Of a stretch of DNA of 38,658 bases, positions 1 through 28,433 are shown in pieces (within the stretch, counting starts at the first letter, position 1; every line of letters begins with the position of its first letter). The position numbers were made by a program, and so were the translations under genes. The notes under the pieces are model-generated. The model had not been told where the DNA came from and made no database searches. It saw only the letters and a program-made list of their open reading frames with translations. Source of the DNA: a virus (lineage: Duplodnaviria; Heunggongvirae; Uroviricota; Caudoviricetes). The stretch lies in IMG/VR virus record IMGVR_UViG_2529293219_000028. The stretch is one strand, 5' to 3'.

Positions 1-141
1 ATGGCAACTTTGTTACAACTTCATTTTGCTTTTAATGGCCCATTTGGCGACGCAATGGCTGAGCAGCTTAAACCACTTGCAGAGTCGATTAATCAGGAAC
101 CTGGTTTTCTGTGGAAGGTATGGACAGAAAGTGAAAAGAAT
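1..141 (+). pseudogene. ydhR: 5' fragment of a host ORF (YdhR-like putative monooxygenase) interrupted by the prophage end; the frame runs into phage DNA and stops at 160-162
   Basis: ATG at 1; translation [47 protein letters not shown] followed by NIARRFF and stop; under 60 aa so absent from the ORF track; YdhR identity is recalled from memory, not searched. Confidence 0.5.
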
Positions 142-158
142 ATAGCGCGGCGATTTTT

Positions 159-223
159 TTGATACCGATTTGCATTTCATTTGATACCGCTGAAAAACGC
201 CGATACGCAACTTATTTGATACT
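159..223. repeat. Three copies of TTGATAC(C/T) (159-166, 181-188, 216-223) in the about 125 bp between the host fragment and the mom stop; candidate transposase-binding repeats of the prophage right end
   Basis: Direct reading of the sequence; position matches where Mu carries its R1-R3 sites; the exact terminus could not be pinned (somewhere in 132-162). Confidence 0.4.
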
Positions 224-1777: not shown

Positions 1778-2023
1778 TTACATCATAGTACCGTCAGTTC
1801 CGGGCTGAACCGGCTCTGGTTGCTCTACGGGTTGAGGATCATTTTCCGTGCTGTTTTCAGCCGGAGAACGGCCAACCATTCGGGCCAGCACTTCATCAAC
1901 ATATGCGTCGATTTGTGCCTCAAAATCCTTGCGAACCTGCGCCTTCAGCACGCGGTTCACTTCTTCAGAATAAAGTGCCTGTTTGACAAGCTCTTCAGTA
2001 ACCGTGCCTTTAATCTCTGGCAT
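1778..2023 (-). CDS. Hypothetical small acidic protein
   Basis: 81 aa ORF with AAGGAGA RBS 7 nt upstream; co-oriented with the esterase gene. Confidence 0.6.
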   Translation of the reverse strand: MPEIKGTVTEELVKQALYSEEVNRVLKAQVRKDFEAQIDAYVDEVLARMVGRSPAENSTENDPQPVEQPEPVQPGTDGTMM

Positions 2024-2058
2024 GAATATTCTCCTTTTGCAGGTATATTGCCCCGTTA

Positions 2059-2241
2059 TCAGAGCGGGGTCGGGTCGTTTGGGGATGACGGTGCCTGTGC
2101 TGTTTTACTGAGTTTTTCAGCTGCCGCATCATCAATTTTACGGCGAATATAATTTCTGATGACCTTATAACCACCGCTCACCAGATATAACGCACTGACC
2201 ACAGCGCAGAAATAAAGCAGCATTGTATGAACGAATGTCAT
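2059..2241 (-). CDS. Hypothetical small membrane protein (one N-terminal TM helix)
   Basis: 60 aa ORF; hydrophobic stretch LLYFCAVVSALYLVSGG; AAGGTAAGG RBS upstream. Confidence 0.6.
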   Translation of the reverse strand: MTFVHTMLLYFCAVVSALYLVSGGYKVIRNYIRRKIDDAAAEKLSKTAQAPSSPNDPTPL

Positions 2242-2387
2242 ATAACCTTACCTTTGATATTGACTACATAATTCGTTATCGGGTAAAAACATCGAAGCGA
2301 CTGATAACCACTCCTTCGGGAGTATTTTTATTTTCCTTTATGGGTTAGGTAGCTCCCGCCAGCCATATCATGACCGGCGGGATTTTT

Positions 2388-4427
2388 TTATTCTGTTACC
2401 GCTTTTTTCACTTCCACCACAATGCTGTCAATCAGCACCGGGTAAGTTGCATTTTTTGTGATATCCGTTACGCGGAGTTTGTCCACCGGGAAAGTTCCTA
2501 CTGGTGACTGCGTCAGGGTAAACGCGGCACCATCCTGACCATCAATAACCGGAATAACCTGAAGGCTGTTATTTCCTGCAAAACGGAAGGCCAGCGTATG
2601 CCATTCATTATCAAATGCACCAAAGGTTCCCAGTTTCTGGTTATTTGTTGCCACTTTTGCATTGTGGTACATCACATTCAGGTCTTTTGCGTCTGTCTGG
2701 ATGTAGAACGATGCCAGCAGATTATTCCCTGCATCCCCTGTCAGGGTGACACCCTGCGGCAGAGAGGAAACCGGCCAGTAAAGCCCCATGACATACTGGT
2801 TTGCCACCAGGTCGCCAGGTACTTTAAAACGACAACTGATTAAACCACCATTTTTCAGCAGTTCAGCACCAGTACCGGCATCATGATCCAGATACCAGGA
2901 TGATTTACCTGTTTCCTTGGTCAGTTTCATTGCCTTACCACCTGTGCCTCCTGCATCACTGATAATTTCAGCTTTACCGCCAGCCGGCTCCCAGCCCTGG
3001 GCTTTCAGATTTCCTTCTGACTCACTGACACGATAAGACAGCAGTGTTGTGGTTACTGCTTCAGTTTCTGAAGGTGACGGCACTGGTGCTTCAGTTTCAG
3101 AAGATGGAACATCGGCTTTTACTGTGGTTCGCCCCGCATGAGTCAGAACTGCCGTGGCCAGACGGTCGGAAATAATCCCACGACGTGCCCATGAACTGAA
3201 ATGGCTGGCCCGGTCCGCAGATGTCCAGGTGGCGGCACTGTTACGCCACGTTGAGCCGTAATAACCAATGGATTCAATATCCGGGTCTTCTGCCGGATTG
3301 TTGGTGGGTACATTCGCGTCATTTTCATCTGTCATTAATGGAACGAAATGAATGTTTTTATCTGTTTTGTTTTTGTAGCCGCCATAGATTGCCTGGTATG
3401 CCGGTTCATTTTTCTGTTTCCAGAAATACGTGGTATCGCCACAAATCCACGGAACGCCAGCAGCACTGCCACCGGTACACTGTTCCGCCTGTTCAGCCAG
3501 GTCTGCGCGGAATTTTTCCACCATCGCCAGAAACAGCGCGGAATGCTCCGTCGGCTTCGCATCAATATCAAACTCGCCCTGCATCCACACCACAGCAAGC
3601 AGGCGGTTTTTCGGGTTCTTCGCCAGTGCCGCTTTTGTCCGGCTGATTAAGTCCTTATACAGCGGCTTATCCACACCCCAGCGGGCTGAGTCCTCTGAAG
3701 CACCCGTGCTGTCACTGTACGTGCCGTCAGCACCCGCCGTGAATGCAGAACCACCACGGCAGCAGGGAACCAGCAGAATCCCCGCATCTGCCGGAATAAA
3801 CGGCAGCAGTTTTTTGGCAATGTGAAGCCCCTGACCCACGGTGCCATATTGCCCTTTAGCCACATCCGCTTTCGGGTGATTTTTTCCACTCATATCCTGC
3901 ACATCATGCAGACAGTGGTCGGCCAGAATGATGTCGTTATACTGACAGGCTTTACCTCCCGGCGTGACTGTACTGCGACGGGCTAACTGCATAATACGCG
4001 GTTCGGGGCGGTCATATGTCTCCGGCAGTGGCAGACCTTCACCGTAAGCCATACCGTTTGACTGACCAGCAAGAACCACCACGTAATACCAGGAAGGGGA
4101 GCTGGAAGCAGTTTCATTTCCTGACGGACGGGTATGTGTTTCAGCATTATCCCAGTCTGACGGTTCAGCAGTACCGGCAACATCAGCACTTAACGGAATG
4201 ACCGCACCAATACCCGCTCCGGTAATTTCCACACTCGGATCACCGGATACTGGCCTTACCCACAGGCAATCCCGTGTATTAAAACTGATGAGACAGTCAG
4301 CAAATGTCATTCCTCCTTTTGTTTCGGCCGGAGGAAAGGGAGCCTCAAGAAATGCCGCTGTACCACCGGAAACTTTAACAGTAAAGTTTCCGGGCATTGA
4401 TGATAGTTGAACCCATTTGGACGTCAT
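2388..4427 (-). CDS. Large cargo protein with a SASA/SGNH-type carbohydrate O-acetylesterase domain and a C-terminal lectin-like domain (NanS-p-like)
   Basis: 679 aa; VVVLAGQSNGMAYGEG motif at residues about 117-130; short tandem PSSETEA / PSPSETEA linker; beta-rich C-terminal third; sits between gin and com-mom. Confidence 0.6.
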   Translation of the reverse strand: MTSKWVQLSSMPGNFTVKVSGGTAAFLEAPFPPAETKGGMTFADCLISFNTRDCLWVRPVSGDPSVEITGAGIGAVIPLSADVAGTAEPSDWDNAETHTRPSGNETASSSPSWYYVVVLAGQSNGMAYGEGLPLPETYDRPEPRIMQLARRSTVTPGGKACQYNDIILADHCLHDVQDMSGKNHPKADVAKGQYGTVGQGLHIAKKLLPFIPADAGILLVPCCRGGSAFTAGADGTYSDSTGASEDSARWGVDKPLYKDLISRTKAALAKNPKNRLLAVVWMQGEFDIDAKPTEHSALFLAMVEKFRADLAEQAEQCTGGSAAGVPWICGDTTYFWKQKNEPAYQAIYGGYKNKTDKNIHFVPLMTDENDANVPTNNPAEDPDIESIGYYGSTWRNSAATWTSADRASHFSSWARRGIISDRLATAVLTHAGRTTVKADVPSSETEAPVPSPSETEAVTTTLLSYRVSESEGNLKAQGWEPAGGKAEIISDAGGTGGKAMKLTKETGKSSWYLDHDAGTGAELLKNGGLISCRFKVPGDLVANQYVMGLYWPVSSLPQGVTLTGDAGNNLLASFYIQTDAKDLNVMYHNAKVATNNQKLGTFGAFDNEWHTLAFRFAGNNSLQVIPVIDGQDGAAFTLTQSPVGTFPVDKLRVTDITKNATYPVLIDSIVVEVKKAVTE

Positions 4428-4526: not shown

Positions 4527-5087
4527 TTATTTTTCCGAAACGCTCGCAGGATAATAACGATAAAGGGTTGAAAGGCCGATATCAAAAATAAGTGCCACCT
4601 GTCTTCGACTGACACCCCCGGCCAGTAAACGCCCGACCTGCTCGTATTGTTCCTGCGTGAGACGACGGGGTCTGCCGCCGGTTCGTCCCCTTTCACGGGC
4701 AGCTGCAAGACCAGCCCGTGTCCGTTCGACAATTAATTCACGCTCCATTTCTGCCAGCGCACCCATTATGTGAAAAAAGAAGCGCCCCATGGGGGTTGAC
4801 GTATCAATGTTGTCAGTAAGACTACGAAAATTTATCCCCTGTTGCTGTAATTCATCTGTCAGCGCAACAAGGTGGCGCATACTGCGCCCCAGCCTGTCCA
4901 GTTTCCAGACCATCAGTGTGTCACCGGGTTTTAGTTTCTTCAGTGCCCGCTTCAGTCCCGGCCGCTGTGTCGTTTTACCACTCATTTTATCTTCAAAAAT
5001 CTGCTCACATCCTGCACATTCCAGCGCATTTCTTTGTAAACCTGTGTTCTGGTCATTTGTTGATACGCGTATATAGCCAATCAGCAT
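4527..5087 (-). CDS. gin: Gin/Hin/Cin-family serine DNA invertase
   Basis: MLIGYIRVSTNDQNTGLQRNALECAGCEQIFEDK...MGRFFFHIMGALAEMERELIVERT is near-identical in pattern to Mu Gin; lies 56 bp from the left boundary of the invertible segment. Confidence 0.9.
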   Translation of the reverse strand: MLIGYIRVSTNDQNTGLQRNALECAGCEQIFEDKMSGKTTQRPGLKRALKKLKPGDTLMVWKLDRLGRSMRHLVALTDELQQQGINFRSLTDNIDTSTPMGRFFFHIMGALAEMERELIVERTRAGLAAARERGRTGGRPRRLTQEQYEQVGRLLAGGVSRRQVALIFDIGLSTLYRYYPASVSEK

Positions 5088-5141: not shown

Positions 5142-5167
5142 ATCCCTGAAACCTTCGGTTTACGGGA
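5142..5167. other. Candidate gix-like crossover site (left); near-palindrome TCCCTGAAACC-TTCG-GTTTACGGGA
   Basis: Palindromic core AAACC..GGTTT exactly where the inverted-repeat homology begins, just upstream of gin. Confidence 0.55.
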
Positions 5168-5335
5168 TACTGTAAACAGGGCCGCGAATGCCCTGCCATC
5201 GAACGGAGCGGCTGTTGCAGCGAATAAACTCGCCACTCCAAGAAATATTAATGGTGTCCCATTTGACGGAACGCAGGATATAAATATTACATCGGGGATG
5301 ACGCAGTCTGTGGCTGACTCACGTTATGTTCAAAG
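5157..5335. repeat. Left inverted repeat of the invertible tail-fibre segment (about 180 bp, roughly 80% identical to the reverse complement of 6351-6529)
   Basis: Manual alignment; both copies start at GGTTTACGGGA and share runs such as CCAAGAAATATTAATGGTGT and TTTGACGGAACGC. Confidence 0.8.
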
Positions 5336-5513
5336 CATTCGAAGAGGTTCAAGGTCAACGATTGGAATGCAATATAATATTTTTGAGGTTCCTGACGGAT
5401 GCGTACTTACAGGGCTTGATGTCGCTGGTGATGGTAATGCAACGGTAACCGCATATTATCGACCTGTTCAGTTTCTGATAGATGGTTCGTGGAAAACAGC
5501 TTCCAGCGCATAA
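5157..5513 (+). CDS. Alternative tail-fibre C-terminal cassette (S'v-like), startless and currently not joined to the fibre gene
   Basis: Frame is open from 5064 with no in-frame start; encodes ...GLRDTVNRAANALPSNGAAVAANKLATPRNINGVPFDGTQDINITSGMTQS..., paralogous to residues about 205-260 of the minus-strand fibre, then diverges (ORF-track 5298..5513). Confidence 0.7.
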   Translation, partial: GLRDTVNRAANALPSNGAAVAANKLATPRNINGVPFDGTQDINITSGMTQSVADSRYVQSIRRGSRSTIGMQYNIFEVPDGCVLTGLDVAGDGNATVTAYYRPVQFLIDGSWKTASSA

Positions 5514-5592
5514 AAGTGCAGTAGTTCAAAAAACAGATTATCTGAATAAATATATGATGATTTTGTCTTTTCAACAAAAACAAGGTGAAATA

Positions 5593-6114
5593 ATGGAGCT
5601 TATTAACGTAAAACGATATTACCCGGAACACAAACCCTATGGTGAGGATGTTCAGTATTTCCAGAGTGAGGACGGAAGGGATTTTTATGAATCTATCCCG
5701 CTTTTCACAAAGAAATACAAACTCTGTATTTCGCCTGTAACGGGTATTATCTGCTCTGTTGCTGAAGATGTCTCTGCTTTATATCCGGCAGGTTTTACTG
5801 TTGTTGAAGTGGACGAACTGCCGGAAGGTGTGAATATTGACGGTAACTGGCAGTTTTCTGATGGCCTGATATCAAAGGTGCCGGTAAACTGGAAGACGGT
5901 TGCTGAAAAGCGCCGCTCATCGCTGCTCCAGGAAGCCAACGAAACTGTGGATGACTGGAAAACGGAATTAAAACTGGACATGATTAGCGATGAAAATAAA
6001 TTACAGCTGACGCGCTGGATGGCGTATATCCGACAGCTTAAAGAAATGCACTTTAATGATATTGCCAGTGAGGGGCATTACCAGGCGATTCCCTGGCCGG
6101 AAAAACCGGAATAA
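5593..6114 (+). CDS. Tail fibre assembly (chaperone) protein, Mu U/U'-like
   Basis: MELINVKRYYPEHKPYGEDV... with the AAGGTG RBS before the ATG at 5593 chosen as start; ORF-track frame 5482..6114; identity called from position and general Tfa-like character, not a recognised motif. Confidence 0.7.
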   Translation: MELINVKRYYPEHKPYGEDVQYFQSEDGRDFYESIPLFTKKYKLCISPVTGIICSVAEDVSALYPAGFTVVEVDELPEGVNIDGNWQFSDGLISKVPVNWKTVAEKRRSSLLQEANETVDDWKTELKLDMISDENKLQLTRWMAYIRQLKEMHFNDIASEGHYQAIPWPEKPE

Positions 6115-6120
6115 TTCAGA

Positions 6121-6146
6121 GGGTGCATTCAGCACCCTTTTCTGTG
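6121..6146. terminator. Bidirectional hairpin between the convergent fibre and chaperone genes
   Basis: GGGTGC-ATTCA-GCACCC stem-loop followed by TTTTCT. Confidence 0.5.
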
Positions 6147-6148
6147 GT

Positions 6149-7060
6149 TTACACTGAACTTACCGTTCTCCAGGCATTATTAATATAAATCTGAACCGGG
6201 CGATAATAGACCCCACCGATATTGTCCGCAGACCGGGAGCCGGTTTCCTGCACGTTAATTCCGGAAAGCATACAACCGGAAGGTGCGCTGTAATTCCATG
6301 ACATTTCATTGCCTCCGGGTGAATGATAGCTCTGTGCTCCAAGCTGAACATTCTGTACATACCGGCCATCTGCGGTTGACTGCGTCATTCCTGACGTGAT
6401 GTTGATATCCAGCGTTCCGTCAAAAGGAACACCATTAATATTTCTTGGGGTGGCGAGTCTGTTTGCTGCCACGGCGGTTCCACCCGATGGCAGGGCATCA
6501 GCAGCCTTATTTACCGTTTCCCGTAAACCAACGTTATCGATAAAAGCGCCTTTATCCGGAATGTCTGCGCCGTTCTGCTCCCTGCGCAGGTAACGGTTAT
6601 CACCTTCGCTTTTGCTGTAAACATCCAGATTATTACGGGCGGTTCCCGCATTCTCCAGGTCGGCAAGGTTCTGATCCTTCGCCAGAGCATTAACGTCACC
6701 GGGACCAAGACTGTTTTTTGTGGCAAGCGCCCCAAGACCAAGATAACCACGGGCAAGACGCTGGGCTTCCGCACCGGCATCAGCAATTTCTTTCAGGTTG
6801 TTTTTCCGGGAAAAGGCATTCGCAGCGATAATGGCTTTAATGGACAGCGTAAGCTGGTTTAACTGCGCCTTATCCGGCTGAATACTGGCTTCAGCCAGAA
6901 TATTCAGCAGTTCGGCCTGGAGAATATTCAGCCAGTCCTGACCAATCCAGCTGATACCTTTTTGTCCGTCACCTTCGGTAAACCAGGTGGTGGTATTACT
7001 CTGCGCCGGTGCCAGCGCAGGCATATTCGCCACGCCGGAATTATTATCAACATGGAACAT
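6149..7060 (-). CDS. Tail fibre protein (constant part plus the currently expressed variable tip)
   Basis: Start placed at the internal Met at 7060, whose ATG overlaps the upstream gene's stop by 1 nt (track start 7114 would overlap by 55 nt); C-terminal part runs through the right inverted repeat. Confidence 0.8.
   Translation of the reverse strand: MFHVDNNSGVANMPALAPAQSNTTTWFTEGDGQKGISWIGQDWLNILQAELLNILAEASIQPDKAQLNQLTLSIKAIIAANAFSRKNNLKEIADAGAEAQRLARGYLGLGALATKNSLGPGDVNALAKDQNLADLENAGTARNNLDVYSKSEGDNRYLRREQNGADIPDKGAFIDNVGLRETVNKAADALPSGGTAVAANRLATPRNINGVPFDGTLDINITSGMTQSTADGRYVQNVQLGAQSYHSPGGNEMSWNYSAPSGCMLSGINVQETGSRSADNIGGVYYRPVQIYINNAWRTVSSV
6351..6529. repeat. Right inverted repeat of the invertible segment, inside the tail fibre gene
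   Basis: Reverse complement aligns with 5157-5335. Confidence 0.8.
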
Positions 7061-7620
7061 TAAATATTCTCCTCTTCGTGACTGTTTGCATATACGTAAA
7101 TAAACGTCTGCCATGCAGGCTTATAACGGTTCAGAATACATTCCAGCGCACCGCCTTCATAAATACGCAGCGGCGTGAGAATATCATCCAGCACATTCAT
7201 ATTCCGGTAGCCGGTTTCACTGTTAATCGTGACAATACTGACCCACTGTGAATCCGGTGATGGCTGAATATCTATTTCATAACCAAACTCTGCCGCAAAC
7301 CGGATATAAAATTCACGGTTAAGAGAGGGTTTCATCCGGTATTTATTCCCGGCATAACGCTGACGCTCCTGAATGGTTGCGCCGGTCATATCACATTCCG
7401 GTAACCCCAGATAACGCTCCCAGTCTTCCAGCAGCAGACGGGATGAATCAGGAAAACGTTCTGCCAGCATCTGGTTACCGGTCCAGGAAACACGCTCCGT
7501 GGAATGACTGAGGCCCAGGCACAAAGCCGCAAGAACGGATGACGGCCGCTTATCCCATGCCAGCCCGTCAGGCAGCAACTGCAACAGGGCGCGCTGATGC
7601 GGGGTCAGGGTTACAGCCAT
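7060..7620 (-). CDS. Tail/baseplate protein (Mu gp48-like)
   Basis: 186 aa; position between the baseplate J-like gene and the fibre gene. Confidence 0.7.
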   Translation of the reverse strand: MAVTLTPHQRALLQLLPDGLAWDKRPSSVLAALCLGLSHSTERVSWTGNQMLAERFPDSSRLLLEDWERYLGLPECDMTGATIQERQRYAGNKYRMKPSLNREFYIRFAAEFGYEIDIQPSPDSQWVSIVTINSETGYRNMNVLDDILTPLRIYEGGALECILNRYKPAWQTFIYVYANSHEEENI

Positions 7621-8696
7621 GTGATTTCCCCCACGGTCAGCAACTCTGTATCTCCGGCCATCACGGACTTCAGCGGGCTGCGAACTTCAAAATCCTCCAG
7701 TCCTTTCACCCCTGCAACAGCCCGCCAGAATGATGAAGGCAATACAAGTCCACCCGGCCGCGATTCGTTATAAAGCAGGTCTGTTAATGCCTGTTTTACG
7801 GCAGCCTGATTTTCCGGCGTTTTGGGTACAATCCTGATCTCAAACGCCACCGGCTTATTGGTCAGCTTAAACACGCTGATTGTCGGCCCAAGTGGCTGAC
7901 CAACGGGCTGGCCCGTCGCCGGATCATCATGACTGCGGATATAATCCGCCACCCGCTTCACATCACCTTCTCCGGGGAAAATGTCAGGGTTATTATCCTG
8001 AACAAAAGTCACACCAACACTACCCGCCTCAGGCCATTCAGGCTTACACCATGCCCGCGTCACGCCCGGTACTTCCCGTGCCCAGCGTTCAAAATCATAC
8101 TGTGTTCCCCCTGATGGCGGGTTCTGTACCCGGAATACCAGCCTGGACAGCAACTCCGGCACCGTTTCCACATCCGCACCACCGGTGAGTCCCGTGCCGG
8201 TGACCGTGGCTGTCTGGTTGATGCCCGCCTGTGGCGTGATAAAGGACAGGCGGGTTCCGGTCGGGGTATTTCCAGCGCGCCCCGCACTTTCCGCCTCCAC
8301 ATTAACATTCAGTGTTCCGGCTTTTCCGGTCGCAGAGCCGGTGATGCGGTACACAACCCCATCGCTTCGCTGAAGGAGTACGCCTTCCGTGATCCCTGCA
8401 TCCGTGGTCAGCATCAGTTGTACCGGTCCGTCAGCGCGGGAAGCCGGTTTACGGATGACACCCCAGAATGCGCAGTGTTTCAGGAGTTCGGCTTCATCAG
8501 CTTCTGTCGGAATTATCTGCCGGGAGATCCAGGCCAGATGTTCATGCTCCTGTGCTGACAGACCCGCCAGTGCATACGCAATGGCATTCAGGGTGGTTTC
8601 ATTCACGCCCGGCTGCGAACCGGGCAGGCGCTGGCTGATATCCTGTTGTGTCTGTGTGATCAGTTGCGCCAGTGGTAAGGGCTGATAAGGCATCAT
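7611..8696 (-). CDS. Baseplate J-like protein (Mu gp47-like)
   Basis: 361 aa; synteny. Confidence 0.75.
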   Translation of the reverse strand: MMPYQPLPLAQLITQTQQDISQRLPGSQPGVNETTLNAIAYALAGLSAQEHEHLAWISRQIIPTEADEAELLKHCAFWGVIRKPASRADGPVQLMLTTDAGITEGVLLQRSDGVVYRITGSATGKAGTLNVNVEAESAGRAGNTPTGTRLSFITPQAGINQTATVTGTGLTGGADVETVPELLSRLVFRVQNPPSGGTQYDFERWAREVPGVTRAWCKPEWPEAGSVGVTFVQDNNPDIFPGEGDVKRVADYIRSHDDPATGQPVGQPLGPTISVFKLTNKPVAFEIRIVPKTPENQAAVKQALTDLLYNESRPGGLVLPSSFWRAVAGVKGLEDFEVRSPLKSVMAGDTELLTVGEITWL

Positions 8697-27568: not shown

Positions 27569-27749
27569 TCGTGGCCGCCTCACTGATTTGTGAAATGAGT
27601 TGCAGGGTGTGCTGCTGATTTGCCAGCACCTGACGCGCCTCATCCCGCTCACGCACAAGCACCTGATTATTGTCTTCAAGGCGCTGCGTCTTCTGGTGCA
27701 TTCCCCATATAGCGGCAACCAGTACAGCGATAATCCCCAGCGCCGCCAT
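27399..27749 (-). CDS. Putative i-spanin (Rz-like); start may instead be at 27899 or 27920
   Basis: TM helix ALGIIAVLVAAIW followed by a Gln/Glu-rich helical periplasmic region; directly downstream of the endolysin gene. Confidence 0.5.
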   Translation of the reverse strand: MAALGIIAVLVAAIWGMHQKTQRLEDNNQVLVRERDEARQVLANQQHTLQLISQISEAATNEKQQNIQHSEGQQSVVRRSLAAVPAASAPVPDDVADRVRRAVCEIRACEAGADPR

Positions 27750-27861
27750 GCACGCCCCGGCAATCAGGGCCGGTAAGGCATTATTCACCGCAGCCACAGG
27801 ACACCCCGTAACAGCAGTACCGCACACAGCAGCGCTATCATGAGCGGTCGCCAGAAGCGGT

Positions 27862-28362
27862 TCAGACTTTCGGCAAGTCGTAGCGACATAACCATTCATC
27901 CGCCGAACGGCGGGCCTCAAGGCCGGGGAGTTTCACCCCCTTTGAATAAATCCAGCGGATATACTGCTTACAGGACGCGGGCATCTGCCCGGCATTGATC
28001 AGGCGCAGAAGCGTGGAGTTGCGAAAGTTCGTTTCACCGGCCCAGAAGATCCACGAAGCCAGCGCCACCGTCTGACCACGGGTAAGCGGCACCTGAACAC
28101 GCCGATCAATGGCCGCAAAGGCCCATTTCATGTCCTTTTCCAGTAGTTCCAGGCATTCTTCATCTGTCAGGGTCATACCCGGTTTCACATCCGGGCCGGT
28201 ATGGCCGTAACAGATGGTGGGTGTACCGGTGGGATCGATATACGTGGAGTTTTCTTTCCCTTCCCAGTAACCGGTGTAATGCGTGGCAATCGTGAACGTC
28301 CCGGCACCGGCCAGAACAAGGGCAATCAGCTTTTTACGCAGTGGTGCGGGGAGTTTTGGCAT
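27862..28362 (-). CDS. Endolysin (phage lysozyme) with N-terminal signal-anchor-release-like hydrophobic segment
   Basis: 166 aa; N-terminal LIALVLAGAGTFTIA followed by lysozyme-like YTGYWEGKENSTYIDPTGTPTICYGHTG. Confidence 0.8.
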   Translation of the reverse strand: MPKLPAPLRKKLIALVLAGAGTFTIATHYTGYWEGKENSTYIDPTGTPTICYGHTGPDVKPGMTLTDEECLELLEKDMKWAFAAIDRRVQVPLTRGQTVALASWIFWAGETNFRNSTLLRLINAGQMPASCKQYIRWIYSKGVKLPGLEARRSADEWLCRYDLPKV

Positions 28363-28433
28363 TGTTACGCTGTCTCATGATGTTCTCTGAGTCAGCGTAA
28401 CGGTGAAGGAGAGGCGGCAGGCTTTGCGGAATA

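What the first reader, a model, noticed from the sequence alone, without database searches (positions are those of the whole stretch)
5593..6149. Only one of the two alternative fibre tips has a co-oriented chaperone gene
In Mu and P1 each orientation supplies a fibre tip plus its own assembly chaperone (Sv-U and S'v-U'). Here the segment holds a single Tfa-like gene (5593-6114, + strand), co-oriented only with the silent S'v cassette. The currently expressed fibre ends at 6149 at a bidirectional hairpin (6121-6146), with no chaperone downstream. Either this tip folds without a chaperone, the chaperone is made from its own promoter in both orientations, or this orientation yields poorly assembled fibres.
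Basis: inference. Interest (0 to 1): 0.5.

Follow-up and report, generated by a model that had tools for sequence, protein, structure and literature searches.

The report
One shared chaperone for two fibre tips
A Mu-like prophage of Shiga-toxin E. coli switches between two tail-fibre tips by DNA inversion but carries only one fibre-assembly chaperone gene, which most likely serves both tips and has its own promoter; this is a modest variant of the classic phage Mu host-range switch.

Summary
The window is an Sp18-type Mu-like prophage of STEC. Its 1.4-kb invertible segment holds two homologous fibre tips and a single Tfa gene (5593-6114). That gene lies in tandem with the silent tip and converges on the expressed fibre gene (6149-7060). 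There is no hidden second chaperone.

The layout is conserved, not a one-off loss. It recurs across diverged alleles, in both orientations, and in Citrobacter. Deletion derivatives that lost the invertase still keep an intact convergent tfa.

Tip A belongs to a tip class that is followed by a co-oriented tfa in the non-invertible phages whose coordinates I compared. The nearest outside relative of this Tfa partners an A-like tip. In O157 Sakai, which has the same orientation, a published oligo-array series shows the silent cassette and tfa rising together about 4-fold at stationary phase while the fibre gene stays flat. That implies an independent promoter.

Best reading (about 0.6): one generalist Tfa, transcribed in either orientation. 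A chaperone-free tip A is less likely, and defective fibres are unlikely.

This copy also has a 3-bp instead of 2-bp crossover spacer, so it is probably locked. About a third of Gin-type segments sampled carry only one tfa.

The parts
6149..7060 (-). Tail fibre gene as currently assembled. It joins a constant part homologous to Mu S Sc (about 6530-7060) to tip cassette A (6149-6529).
   Evidence: Residues 2-199 match Mu S residues 1-191 (PDB 5yvq_A, E 4e-49), and the last ~75 aa match the Mu S tip, residues 435-503. PHROG 1833 tail fibre, 5e-166. PGAP annotation.
6518..6543 (-). Fibre-side crossover site, gix-like: TTATCGATAACG TT GGTTTACGGGAA, with a 2-bp core at 6530-6531.
   Evidence: Junction comparison of window-orientation and flipped genomes places the exchange here.
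6118..6140 (+). GC-rich hairpin between the convergent stop codons. It acts as a terminator for tfa, because the U-tract is on the + strand only.
   Evidence: Terminator scan. Folding gives -17.9 kcal/mol, z = -3.0. A hairpin is kept at this position in non-homologous alleles.
5593..6114 (+). The single tail-fibre assembly (Tfa) gene. It is in tandem with tip B and convergent with the expressed fibre gene.
   Evidence: Caudo_TAP at 67.3 bits. Mu U in 5yvq_B at 2e-15. Intact in all 33 related loci examined. dN/dS 0.10-0.23.
5157..5513 (+). Silent alternative tip cassette B. It is promoterless for translation as a fibre, and its distal part is 42% identical to tip A.
   Evidence: In-frame translation. 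It is fused to the constant part as a 295-aa fibre in flipped genomes. Identity matrix.
5142..5168 (+). Invertase-side crossover site with an abnormal 3-bp spacer: ATCCCTGAAACC TTC GGTTTACGGGAT, spacer at 5154-5156.
   Evidence: Every other copy whose crossover site I read has a 2-bp core, TT or TC. No flipped genome has the 3-bp spacer.
4527..5087 (-). Serine DNA invertase of the Gin/Pin/Hin/Cin family.
   Evidence: Pfam Resolvase 1.4e-51 plus HTH_7 1.7e-14. 74-75% identical to Mu Gin.
7060..7620 (-). Mu gp48-like baseplate wedge gene directly upstream of the fibre gene (late-operon context).
   Evidence: Pfam Phage_Mu_Gp48, 2e-22.

Best explanation
This is the host-range switch of an Sp18-type Mu-like prophage. 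A Gin-family serine invertase flips a ~1.4-kb segment between two gix-like sites. The flip joins the constant N-terminal two thirds of the fibre protein to either tip A or tip B. This step is shown by sequence and by natural flipped copies.

The two tips are homologous small domains of the Mu S tip type. One Tfa gene sits between them. I infer that this single Tfa is a generalist chaperone for both tips.

- In orientation B, tfa is the last gene of the late operon.
- In orientation A, the state of this window, tfa is transcribed together with the silent tip B cassette. The promoter is independent of the late operon and lies upstream of or within that cassette. The transcript ends at the hairpin. 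A co-transcript is shown in a lysogen by published array data. Whether it supplies enough Tfa during lytic growth is inferred.

In this particular copy the invertase-side site has a 3-bp spacer, so the segment is probably frozen in orientation A.
For: 1. Conserved architecture. The layout tipX -> <- tfa <- tipY, invertase recurs with tips 42-100% identical, Tfa 61-100% and invertase 81-100%, in both orientations. It also occurs in Citrobacter.

2. Tfa is not specific to one tip allele. Nearly the same Tfa (3 substitutions) sits next to tip B or to tip C, which are 41% identical. Each Tfa allele occurs with at least two alleles of each tip.

3. Tip A is a Tfa-client type.
- Its homologues in Rac-SA53, CR8 and PBES02 are each followed within about 20 nt by a co-oriented tfa.
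- The N-terminal half of the window Tfa is 69% identical to that of Rac-SA53 Tfa. This half is the fibre-binding domain according to North et al. 2019, as summarised in PMC9608196.
- The client tip of Rac-SA53 Tfa is 66% identical to tip A but only 34% identical to tip B.

4. Invertase-less deletion derivatives (L048-52, L057, L064, and 7 complete genomes) fix the convergent arrangement. They still keep intact tfa alleles with dN/dS 0.10-0.23.

5. Sakai oligo-array data. ECs4990 and ECs4991 have near-identical 10-point profiles that rise about 2.1 log2, while ECs4989 and ECs4993 do not.

6. The orientation-A lineage with the 3-bp spacer is 100% identical in O26, O103, O157:H7 and O145:H28 strains at four different insertion sites, with the window in ydhR as a fifth. 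So it has spread in this state. Sp18 packages DNA and makes Mu-like particles.
Against: - No promoter could be located. Consensus and PWM scans give only background-level hits.
- The array data come from an uninduced lysogen and show relative changes, not absolute levels or lytic-phase expression.
- If this Tfa stays bound to the tip stoichiometrically, as Mu U does, a weak promoter might not supply enough.
- Variation among the invertase-less tfa alleles is partly imported by recombination. Their low dN/dS may therefore reflect selection in invertible relatives.
- In P2-like prophages, single-tfa segments exist where the tfa-less tip is a different, probably chaperone-free domain. So a chaperone-free tip is a real possibility in principle.
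- No binding or folding experiment or complex model was available.
Confidence: 0.6

Rival explanations
1. Tip A folds and trimerises without any Tfa. The single tfa serves only the tip it is co-transcribed with (B or C). In orientation A it is simply silent or irrelevant.
For: In orientation A, tfa is antisense to the late operon and no convincing promoter is predicted. In P2-like prophages, single-tfa invertible segments pair a Tfa-linked tip with an unrelated tip (..SSNGFSWRVYYAPV) that has no chaperone gene. So chaperone-free alternative tips do exist.
Against: Tips A and B are homologous to each other and to the Mu S tip that binds U. In the three non-invertible phages compared, the A-type tip has a tfa directly downstream, and in Citrobacter and in L141 the A-like tip is the tfa-linked one. 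The closest outside relative of the window Tfa partners an A-like tip. tfa stays intact in lineages fixed in orientation A by loss of the invertase.
Confidence: 0.22
2. Orientation A gives poorly assembled or non-functional fibres. It would be an 'off' or decayed state, and the prophage would be infectious only in orientation B.
For: There is no co-oriented chaperone. This copy's crossover site looks damaged (3-bp spacer), which could mark a decaying prophage.
Against: About 158 complete genomes are in orientation A against about 34 in orientation B. The 3-bp-spacer lineage is 100% identical across four serotypes at four different insertion sites, which requires recent spread. Invertase-less A-fixed derivatives have diversified by recombination and keep intact fibre and tfa genes. 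Tip A is intact and conservatively substituted wherever it is silent.
Confidence: 0.08
3. Tfa for tip A is supplied in trans by tfa genes of other prophages in the same STEC cell.
For: STEC genomes carry many lambdoid and P2-like prophages with tfa genes. Many genomes show several matches to parts of this region.
Against: The nearest phage Tfa outside the family is only 53% identical. The element also occurs in non-STEC human and mouse strains. This does not explain retention of the resident tfa in A-fixed derivatives. It was not tested directly.
Confidence: 0.05

Closest known systems
Phage Mu G segment (S-U / S'-U', gin, gix)
   Same: It shares the Mu-type baseplate operon (gp47, gp48) and a fibre whose constant N-terminal part is homologous to Mu S. 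The crossover falls at the equivalent point. The invertase is 74-75% identical to Gin. The gix-like sites are 26 bp, and the tip domain is homologous to the Mu S tip.
   Different: It has one tfa instead of two. The variable part is ~120 aa instead of ~330 aa: the region matching Mu S residues ~200-435 is absent. The segment is 1.4 kb rather than 3 kb. In one orientation tfa converges on the expressed fibre gene. An esterase block lies between the invertase and com/mom.
Prophage Sp18 of E. coli O157:H7 Sakai
   Same: It is the same element. The gene order ECs4987-4993 is identical and the orientation is the same. [quoted passage not shown]
   Different: Sakai has normal TT/TT 2-bp cores, while this window has a TTC spacer at the invertase-side site. 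The insertion sites differ: the window is in ydhR. The papers I found do not discuss the single-chaperone layout.
Two-chaperone invertible segments of other phages (the sampled P2-like and Mu-like contigs; from memory also P1 C and e14 P)
   Same: A serine invertase sits next to a short inverted-repeat-flanked segment that exchanges fibre C-termini.
   Different: These segments carry two convergent tfa genes, often overlapping by ~28 nt at their 3' ends (24 of the sampled segments). The assignment of P1 and e14 to this class rests on my own knowledge and was not tested here.
Single-tfa invertible segments of P2-like prophages (L149, L158, L165 types)
   Same: The layout tipX -> <- tfa <- tipY with an adjacent invertase is the same, and both orientations are seen.
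   Different: There the two tips are unrelated folds. The Tfa-linked tip has Collar and S_tail_recep_bd domains, and the other tip has neither. A chaperone-free tip is therefore the natural reading for those loci. Here the two tips are homologous.

Membership tests
Mu G-type invertible host-range switch | A serine invertase of the Gin/Hin/Cin/Pin family lies adjacent to the segment. | tested here: met
   Pfam Resolvase 1.4e-51 and HTH_7 1.7e-14. 74-75% identity to Mu Gin.
Mu G-type invertible host-range switch | Two inverted 26-bp crossover sites with identical 2-bp cores. | tested here: inconclusive
   The family meets this feature: Sakai has TT/TT and others have TC/TC. In this window the fibre-side site is normal, but the invertase-side site has a 3-bp spacer, TTC. 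Whether it still recombines was not testable here. About 35-40 orientation-A genomes have the 3-bp spacer and none of about 34 flipped genomes do.
Mu G-type invertible host-range switch | A constant fibre N-terminus is fused in frame to alternative C-termini, and both orientations occur in nature. | tested here: met
   Flipped genomes encode an intact 295-aa fibre made of the constant part plus tip B. Both orientations occur among IMG/VR loci.
Mu G-type invertible host-range switch | Each orientation brings its own co-oriented chaperone gene (U and U'). | tested here: not met
   There is one Caudo_TAP gene only, and no other ORF has a tail or chaperone hit. Mu has two.
Mu G-type invertible host-range switch | A Fis-dependent recombinational enhancer lies in the 5' part of the invertase gene. 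| not tested
   This feature is known for Gin, Hin and Cin from the literature (my own knowledge). I ran no Fis-site analysis.
Tail fibre assembly protein (Caudo_TAP / Mu U type) | Sequence membership in the family. | tested here: met
   PF02413 at 67.3 bits against a cut-off of 22.1. PHROG 136 at 1e-57. PDB 5yvq_B at 2e-15 over residues 17-147.
Tail fibre assembly protein (Caudo_TAP / Mu U type) | The gene is encoded immediately downstream of, and co-oriented with, the client fibre gene. | tested here: inconclusive
   This is met for tip B and tip C (80-120 nt downstream) but not for tip A in this family. It is met for A-like tips in Rac-SA53, CR8 and PBES02.
Tail fibre assembly protein (Caudo_TAP / Mu U type) | The protein is required for folding and trimerisation of the fibre tip and binds to it. 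| not testable with these tools
   This needs co-expression and binding assays or a multimer structure model.
Mu S-type tail fibre | An N-terminal baseplate-docking part and a C-terminal tip, both homologous to Mu S. | tested here: met
   Residues 2-199 align with Mu S 1-191, and residues 230-303 align with Mu S 435-503. The middle ~235 residues of Mu S have no counterpart.

The most novel reading that the evidence does not exclude
Invertible host-range cassettes with a single chaperone gene may be a distinct and common design: about one third of the Gin-type segments sampled. In the Sp18 family the chaperone would be a generalist whose gene, together with whichever tip cassette precedes it, forms an autonomous transcription unit. 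That unit is active regardless of orientation, and even in lysogens entering stationary phase. The lysogen expression could additionally mean that the silent tip fragment plus Tfa has a host-side role, for example masking a surface receptor against superinfection. This would resemble the fibre chimeras made by PinQ/PinR inversion, which the abstracts of two recent papers report to block T2 adsorption.
Probability: 0.3. Interest if true: 0.6.

Novelty: new variant of a known kind. Interest (0 to 1): 0.4.

Why it matters
Textbook inversion switches (Mu, P1, e14) pair each fibre tip with its own chaperone, and fibre-engineering work assumes cognate tip-chaperone pairs.

A natural system in which one Tfa serves tips only 33-46% identical to each other would define what a Tfa actually recognises. 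Here that Tfa is also expressed independently of the operon that makes the fibre. Such a system would offer a ready-made 'universal' chaperone for swapping tips of this class.

The finding also bears on STEC biology. Sp18-type phages are active, insert into Stx phages and other genes, and their host range is set by this module.

The 3-bp-spacer variant gives a natural locked control for experiments.

Tried and rejected
- Hidden second chaperone. I looked on the minus strand of 5400-6150 and downstream of the invertase. There are no family hits, and the antisense ORF is not conserved. Rejected.
- The 3-bp spacer as the cause of the excess of orientation A. Rejected as a general cause. Most orientation-A genomes, including Sakai, have normal 2-bp cores.
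- Flipped genomes with a 134-nt junction as possible 3-bp spacers. L125 shows that the extra base lies in the outer half-site, not in the core.
- Locating the promoter of the cassette-tfa transcript. The consensus scan and my own PWM scan give only background-level sites, and the outside flank has no conserved motif across alleles. Unresolved.
- The GTDB species-representative scan with the fibre protein gave only two useful relatives. IMG/VR was far more productive.
- North & Davidson 2021 (Tfa binds LPS) could not be read. What I say about it is from memory or from citing papers.
- I did not attempt a single-chain AlphaFold run. It cannot model the 3:3 tip-Tfa complex, and fused constructs would not be accepted.

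Full report
**What the window is**

The region is 100% identical to chromosomal prophages in E. coli O26, O103, O145:H28 and many O157:H7 strains. It has the same gene order as prophage Sp18 of O157:H7 Sakai, the Mu-like phage of that strain. The late operon runs on the minus strand. The genes, in order along that operon, are:

- Baseplate J / gp47, 7611-8696.
- Mu gp48 / YmfQ, 7060-7620.
- A 303-aa tail fibre, 6149-7060.
- The invertible segment.
- A serine invertase, 4527-5087.
- A DUF6645/SASA esterase, 2388-4427.

**Checking the observation**

A single Caudo_TAP gene lies at 5593-6114 on the + strand. It scores 67.3 bits against a cut-off of 22.1, matches PHROG 136 at 1e-57, and matches Mu U in PDB entry 5YVQ chain B at 2e-15.

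Upstream of it, on the same strand, is an in-frame tip cassette without a start of its own, 5157-5513. The expressed fibre gene converges on tfa, and the two stop codons are 34 nt apart.

Between them is a hairpin whose stem spans 6119-6139 (-17.9 kcal/mol, z = -3.0). Its U-tract is on the + strand, so it is chiefly the tfa terminator.

The inverted-repeat arms are 5148-5332 and 6354-6538. Mu itself carries U and U'.

No other ORF in or near the segment resembles a chaperone. The long antisense frame inside tfa is not conserved in other alleles.

**The switch is real**

A synthetic 'flipped' query found about 22 complete genomes carrying the inverted arrangement. In these the constant part is fused in frame to tip B, giving a 295-aa fibre that is followed by tfa.

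Comparing junctions places the exchange in gix-like 26-bp sites:

- Fibre side, 6518-6543: TTATCGATAACG-TT-GGTTTACGGGAA.
- Invertase side, 5142-5168: see below.

Copies elsewhere have matching 2-bp cores, TT/TT (Sakai, L002) or TC/TC (L003, L004). This window has a 3-bp spacer, TTC, at the invertase-side site. About 35-40 other genomes share it, all in the window's orientation. None of about 34 flipped genomes has it.

Gin/Hin-type recombination needs identical 2-bp cores and fixed half-site spacing; that statement rests on established knowledge and was not tested here. This copy is therefore probably locked.

The spacer is not the reason that orientation A predominates. Most orientation-A genomes have normal cores.

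**Is the single tfa an accident?**

It is not. IMG/VR loci related through the fibre protein show the same layout, tipX -> <- tfa <- tipY followed by invertase and esterase. This holds with tips 42-100% identical, Tfa 61-100% and invertase 81-100%, and in both orientations. A Citrobacter braakii prophage has the same layout with different tips and a DUF4376-type Tfa.

Seven IMG/VR loci and seven complete genomes lack the invertase and the second tip. They retain the last ~30 nt of a tip C cassette and ~60 nt of the invertase 3' end, so they are deletion derivatives frozen with tfa convergent to the fibre gene.

Their tfa genes are all intact, with five distinct proteins. Their dN/dS is 0.10-0.23 at dS up to 0.43. 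Part of this variation was imported by recombination.

**Does tip A use a Tfa?**

- The fibre N-terminus matches the constant part of Mu S, and its last ~75 residues match the Mu S tip, residues 435-503. That is the part bound by Mu U according to the work summarised in PMC9608196.
- Tips A, B and C are 41-42% identical to one another and 42-57% identical to the Mu S tip.
- The nearest phage homologues of tip A are each followed within about 20 nt by a co-oriented tfa. The tip and tfa coordinates are:
  - Rac-SA53: tip 47094-47324, tfa 47345-47863.
  - CR8: tip 27679-27879, tfa 27891-28391.
  - PBES02: tip 81846-82046, tfa 82058-82558.
- The N-terminal, fibre-binding half of the window Tfa is 69% identical to that of Rac-SA53 Tfa. 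The client tip of Rac-SA53 Tfa is 66% identical to tip A but only 34% identical to tip B.
- Nearly the same Tfa (3 substitutions) sits next to tip B or tip C. Each Tfa allele is found with several alleles of both tips.

Together these points argue for one generalist Tfa rather than a chaperone-free tip A.

**Can tfa be made in orientation A?**

Sakai has the window's orientation. The study in PMC2241611 used a 70-mer oligo-array growth series.

- ECs4991 (silent tip ORF) and ECs4990 (tfa) show almost superimposable profiles. They run at about -1.0 log2 in exponential phase and reach +1.1 to +1.3 at the stationary transition. Both are listed at +2.1 log2 with p < 1e-7.
- The fibre gene ECs4989 drifts by less than 1 log2. 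The esterase ECs4993 is flat, and ECs4986 falls.

This indicates a cassette-tfa transcript from a promoter independent of the late operon. I could not locate that promoter, because all scans gave background-level hits. The data also say nothing about lytic growth.

**Is orientation A functional?**

Sp18 is described as intact, packages its DNA and yields Mu-like particles. The 3-bp-spacer lineage is 100% identical in four serotypes at four different insertion sites:

- a phage portal gene in the O26 strain,
- yoaF in the O103 strain,
- a urease-cluster amidohydrolase gene in the O157:H7 strain,
- a phage portal gene in the O145:H28 strain.

The window itself is inserted in ydhR, a fifth site. 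Spread in this state argues against defective fibres.

**Wider comparison**

Among 80 IMG/VR loci retrieved with a Gin-family invertase profile, I considered those with an inverted repeat beside the invertase and at least one tfa inside.

- 24 have two convergent tfa genes, the Mu type.
- About 14 have one.

The sample is redundant, and the inverted-repeat calls are automatic.

In the P2-like single-tfa segments the tfa-less tip is unrelated to the tfa-linked one. A chaperone-free tip is plausible there, and this keeps that rival alive in principle.

I found no paper that discusses single-chaperone invertible segments.

**Verdict**

The most likely mechanism is a shared Tfa with orientation-independent transcription (about 0.6). 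A chaperone-free tip A comes second (about 0.2), and defective fibres are unlikely. The element is a new variant of the Mu G-type switch and is of moderate interest.

Noticed in passing
window 5154-5156 (site 5142-5168): The invertase-side crossover site has a 3-bp spacer, TTC, where every other copy whose site I read has TT or TC. About 35-40 complete genomes share it, all in this orientation, and no flipped genome does. It is probably a natural lock of the switch.
   Followed up: yes
L048-L052, L057, L064 (e.g. L048 2427-3554): These relatives lost the invertase and the second tip by one deletion. The scar keeps ~30 nt of a tip C cassette and ~60 nt of the invertase 3' end. That leaves tfa permanently convergent with the fibre gene. 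The tip A region was later exchanged by recombination.
   Followed up: yes
window 5298-6114 (Sakai ECs4991-ECs4990): Published array data show that the silent tip ORF and tfa are induced together about 4-fold at entry into stationary phase in an uninduced lysogen, in the RpoS-like expression cluster. The reason for lysogen expression is unknown.
   Followed up: partly
window 1778-4427: A 679-aa DUF6645/SASA (sialate O-acetylesterase-like) gene plus DUF1378 and DUF826 genes lie between the invertase and com/mom, where Mu has nothing. From memory, the block resembles NanS-p-type esterase genes of Stx phages. Its alleles vary (46-100% identity) independently of the fibre module.
   Followed up: no
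window 1-162 and 269-1205: The window starts with a truncated ydhR (Pfam ydhR, 1.4e-16), so this prophage copy is inserted in ydhR. mom (269-1006) lies at this end; com was located only through the annotation of identical copies. Identical copies elsewhere interrupt phage portal genes, yoaF and a urease-cluster gene.
   Followed up: partly
L149 4061-4321, L170 4906-5166, L193 4013-4273: In P2-like single-tfa segments, a conserved 86-aa ORF overlaps the end of the tfa-less tip and moves with it on inversion. It has no Pfam hit. It could be a remnant of a second tfa or a small helper.
   Followed up: partly
L135 3143-4184, L150 4061-5096 and other two-tfa loci: Where two tfa genes are present, they converge and overlap by about 28 nt at their 3' ends.
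   Followed up: no
L005 8890-9054: The Citrobacter braakii segment contains a third tip-like fragment, 49% identical to the Mu S' tip, between the alternative tip and the invertase. This may be a remnant cassette or a three-way system.
   Followed up: no
window 5593-6114 versus alleles in L048 and L056: Within this family the N-terminal half of Tfa is more conserved (73-74% identity) than the C-terminal half (47-51%). This is the reverse of the general rule that Tfa N-domains vary and C-domains are conserved.
   Followed up: partly
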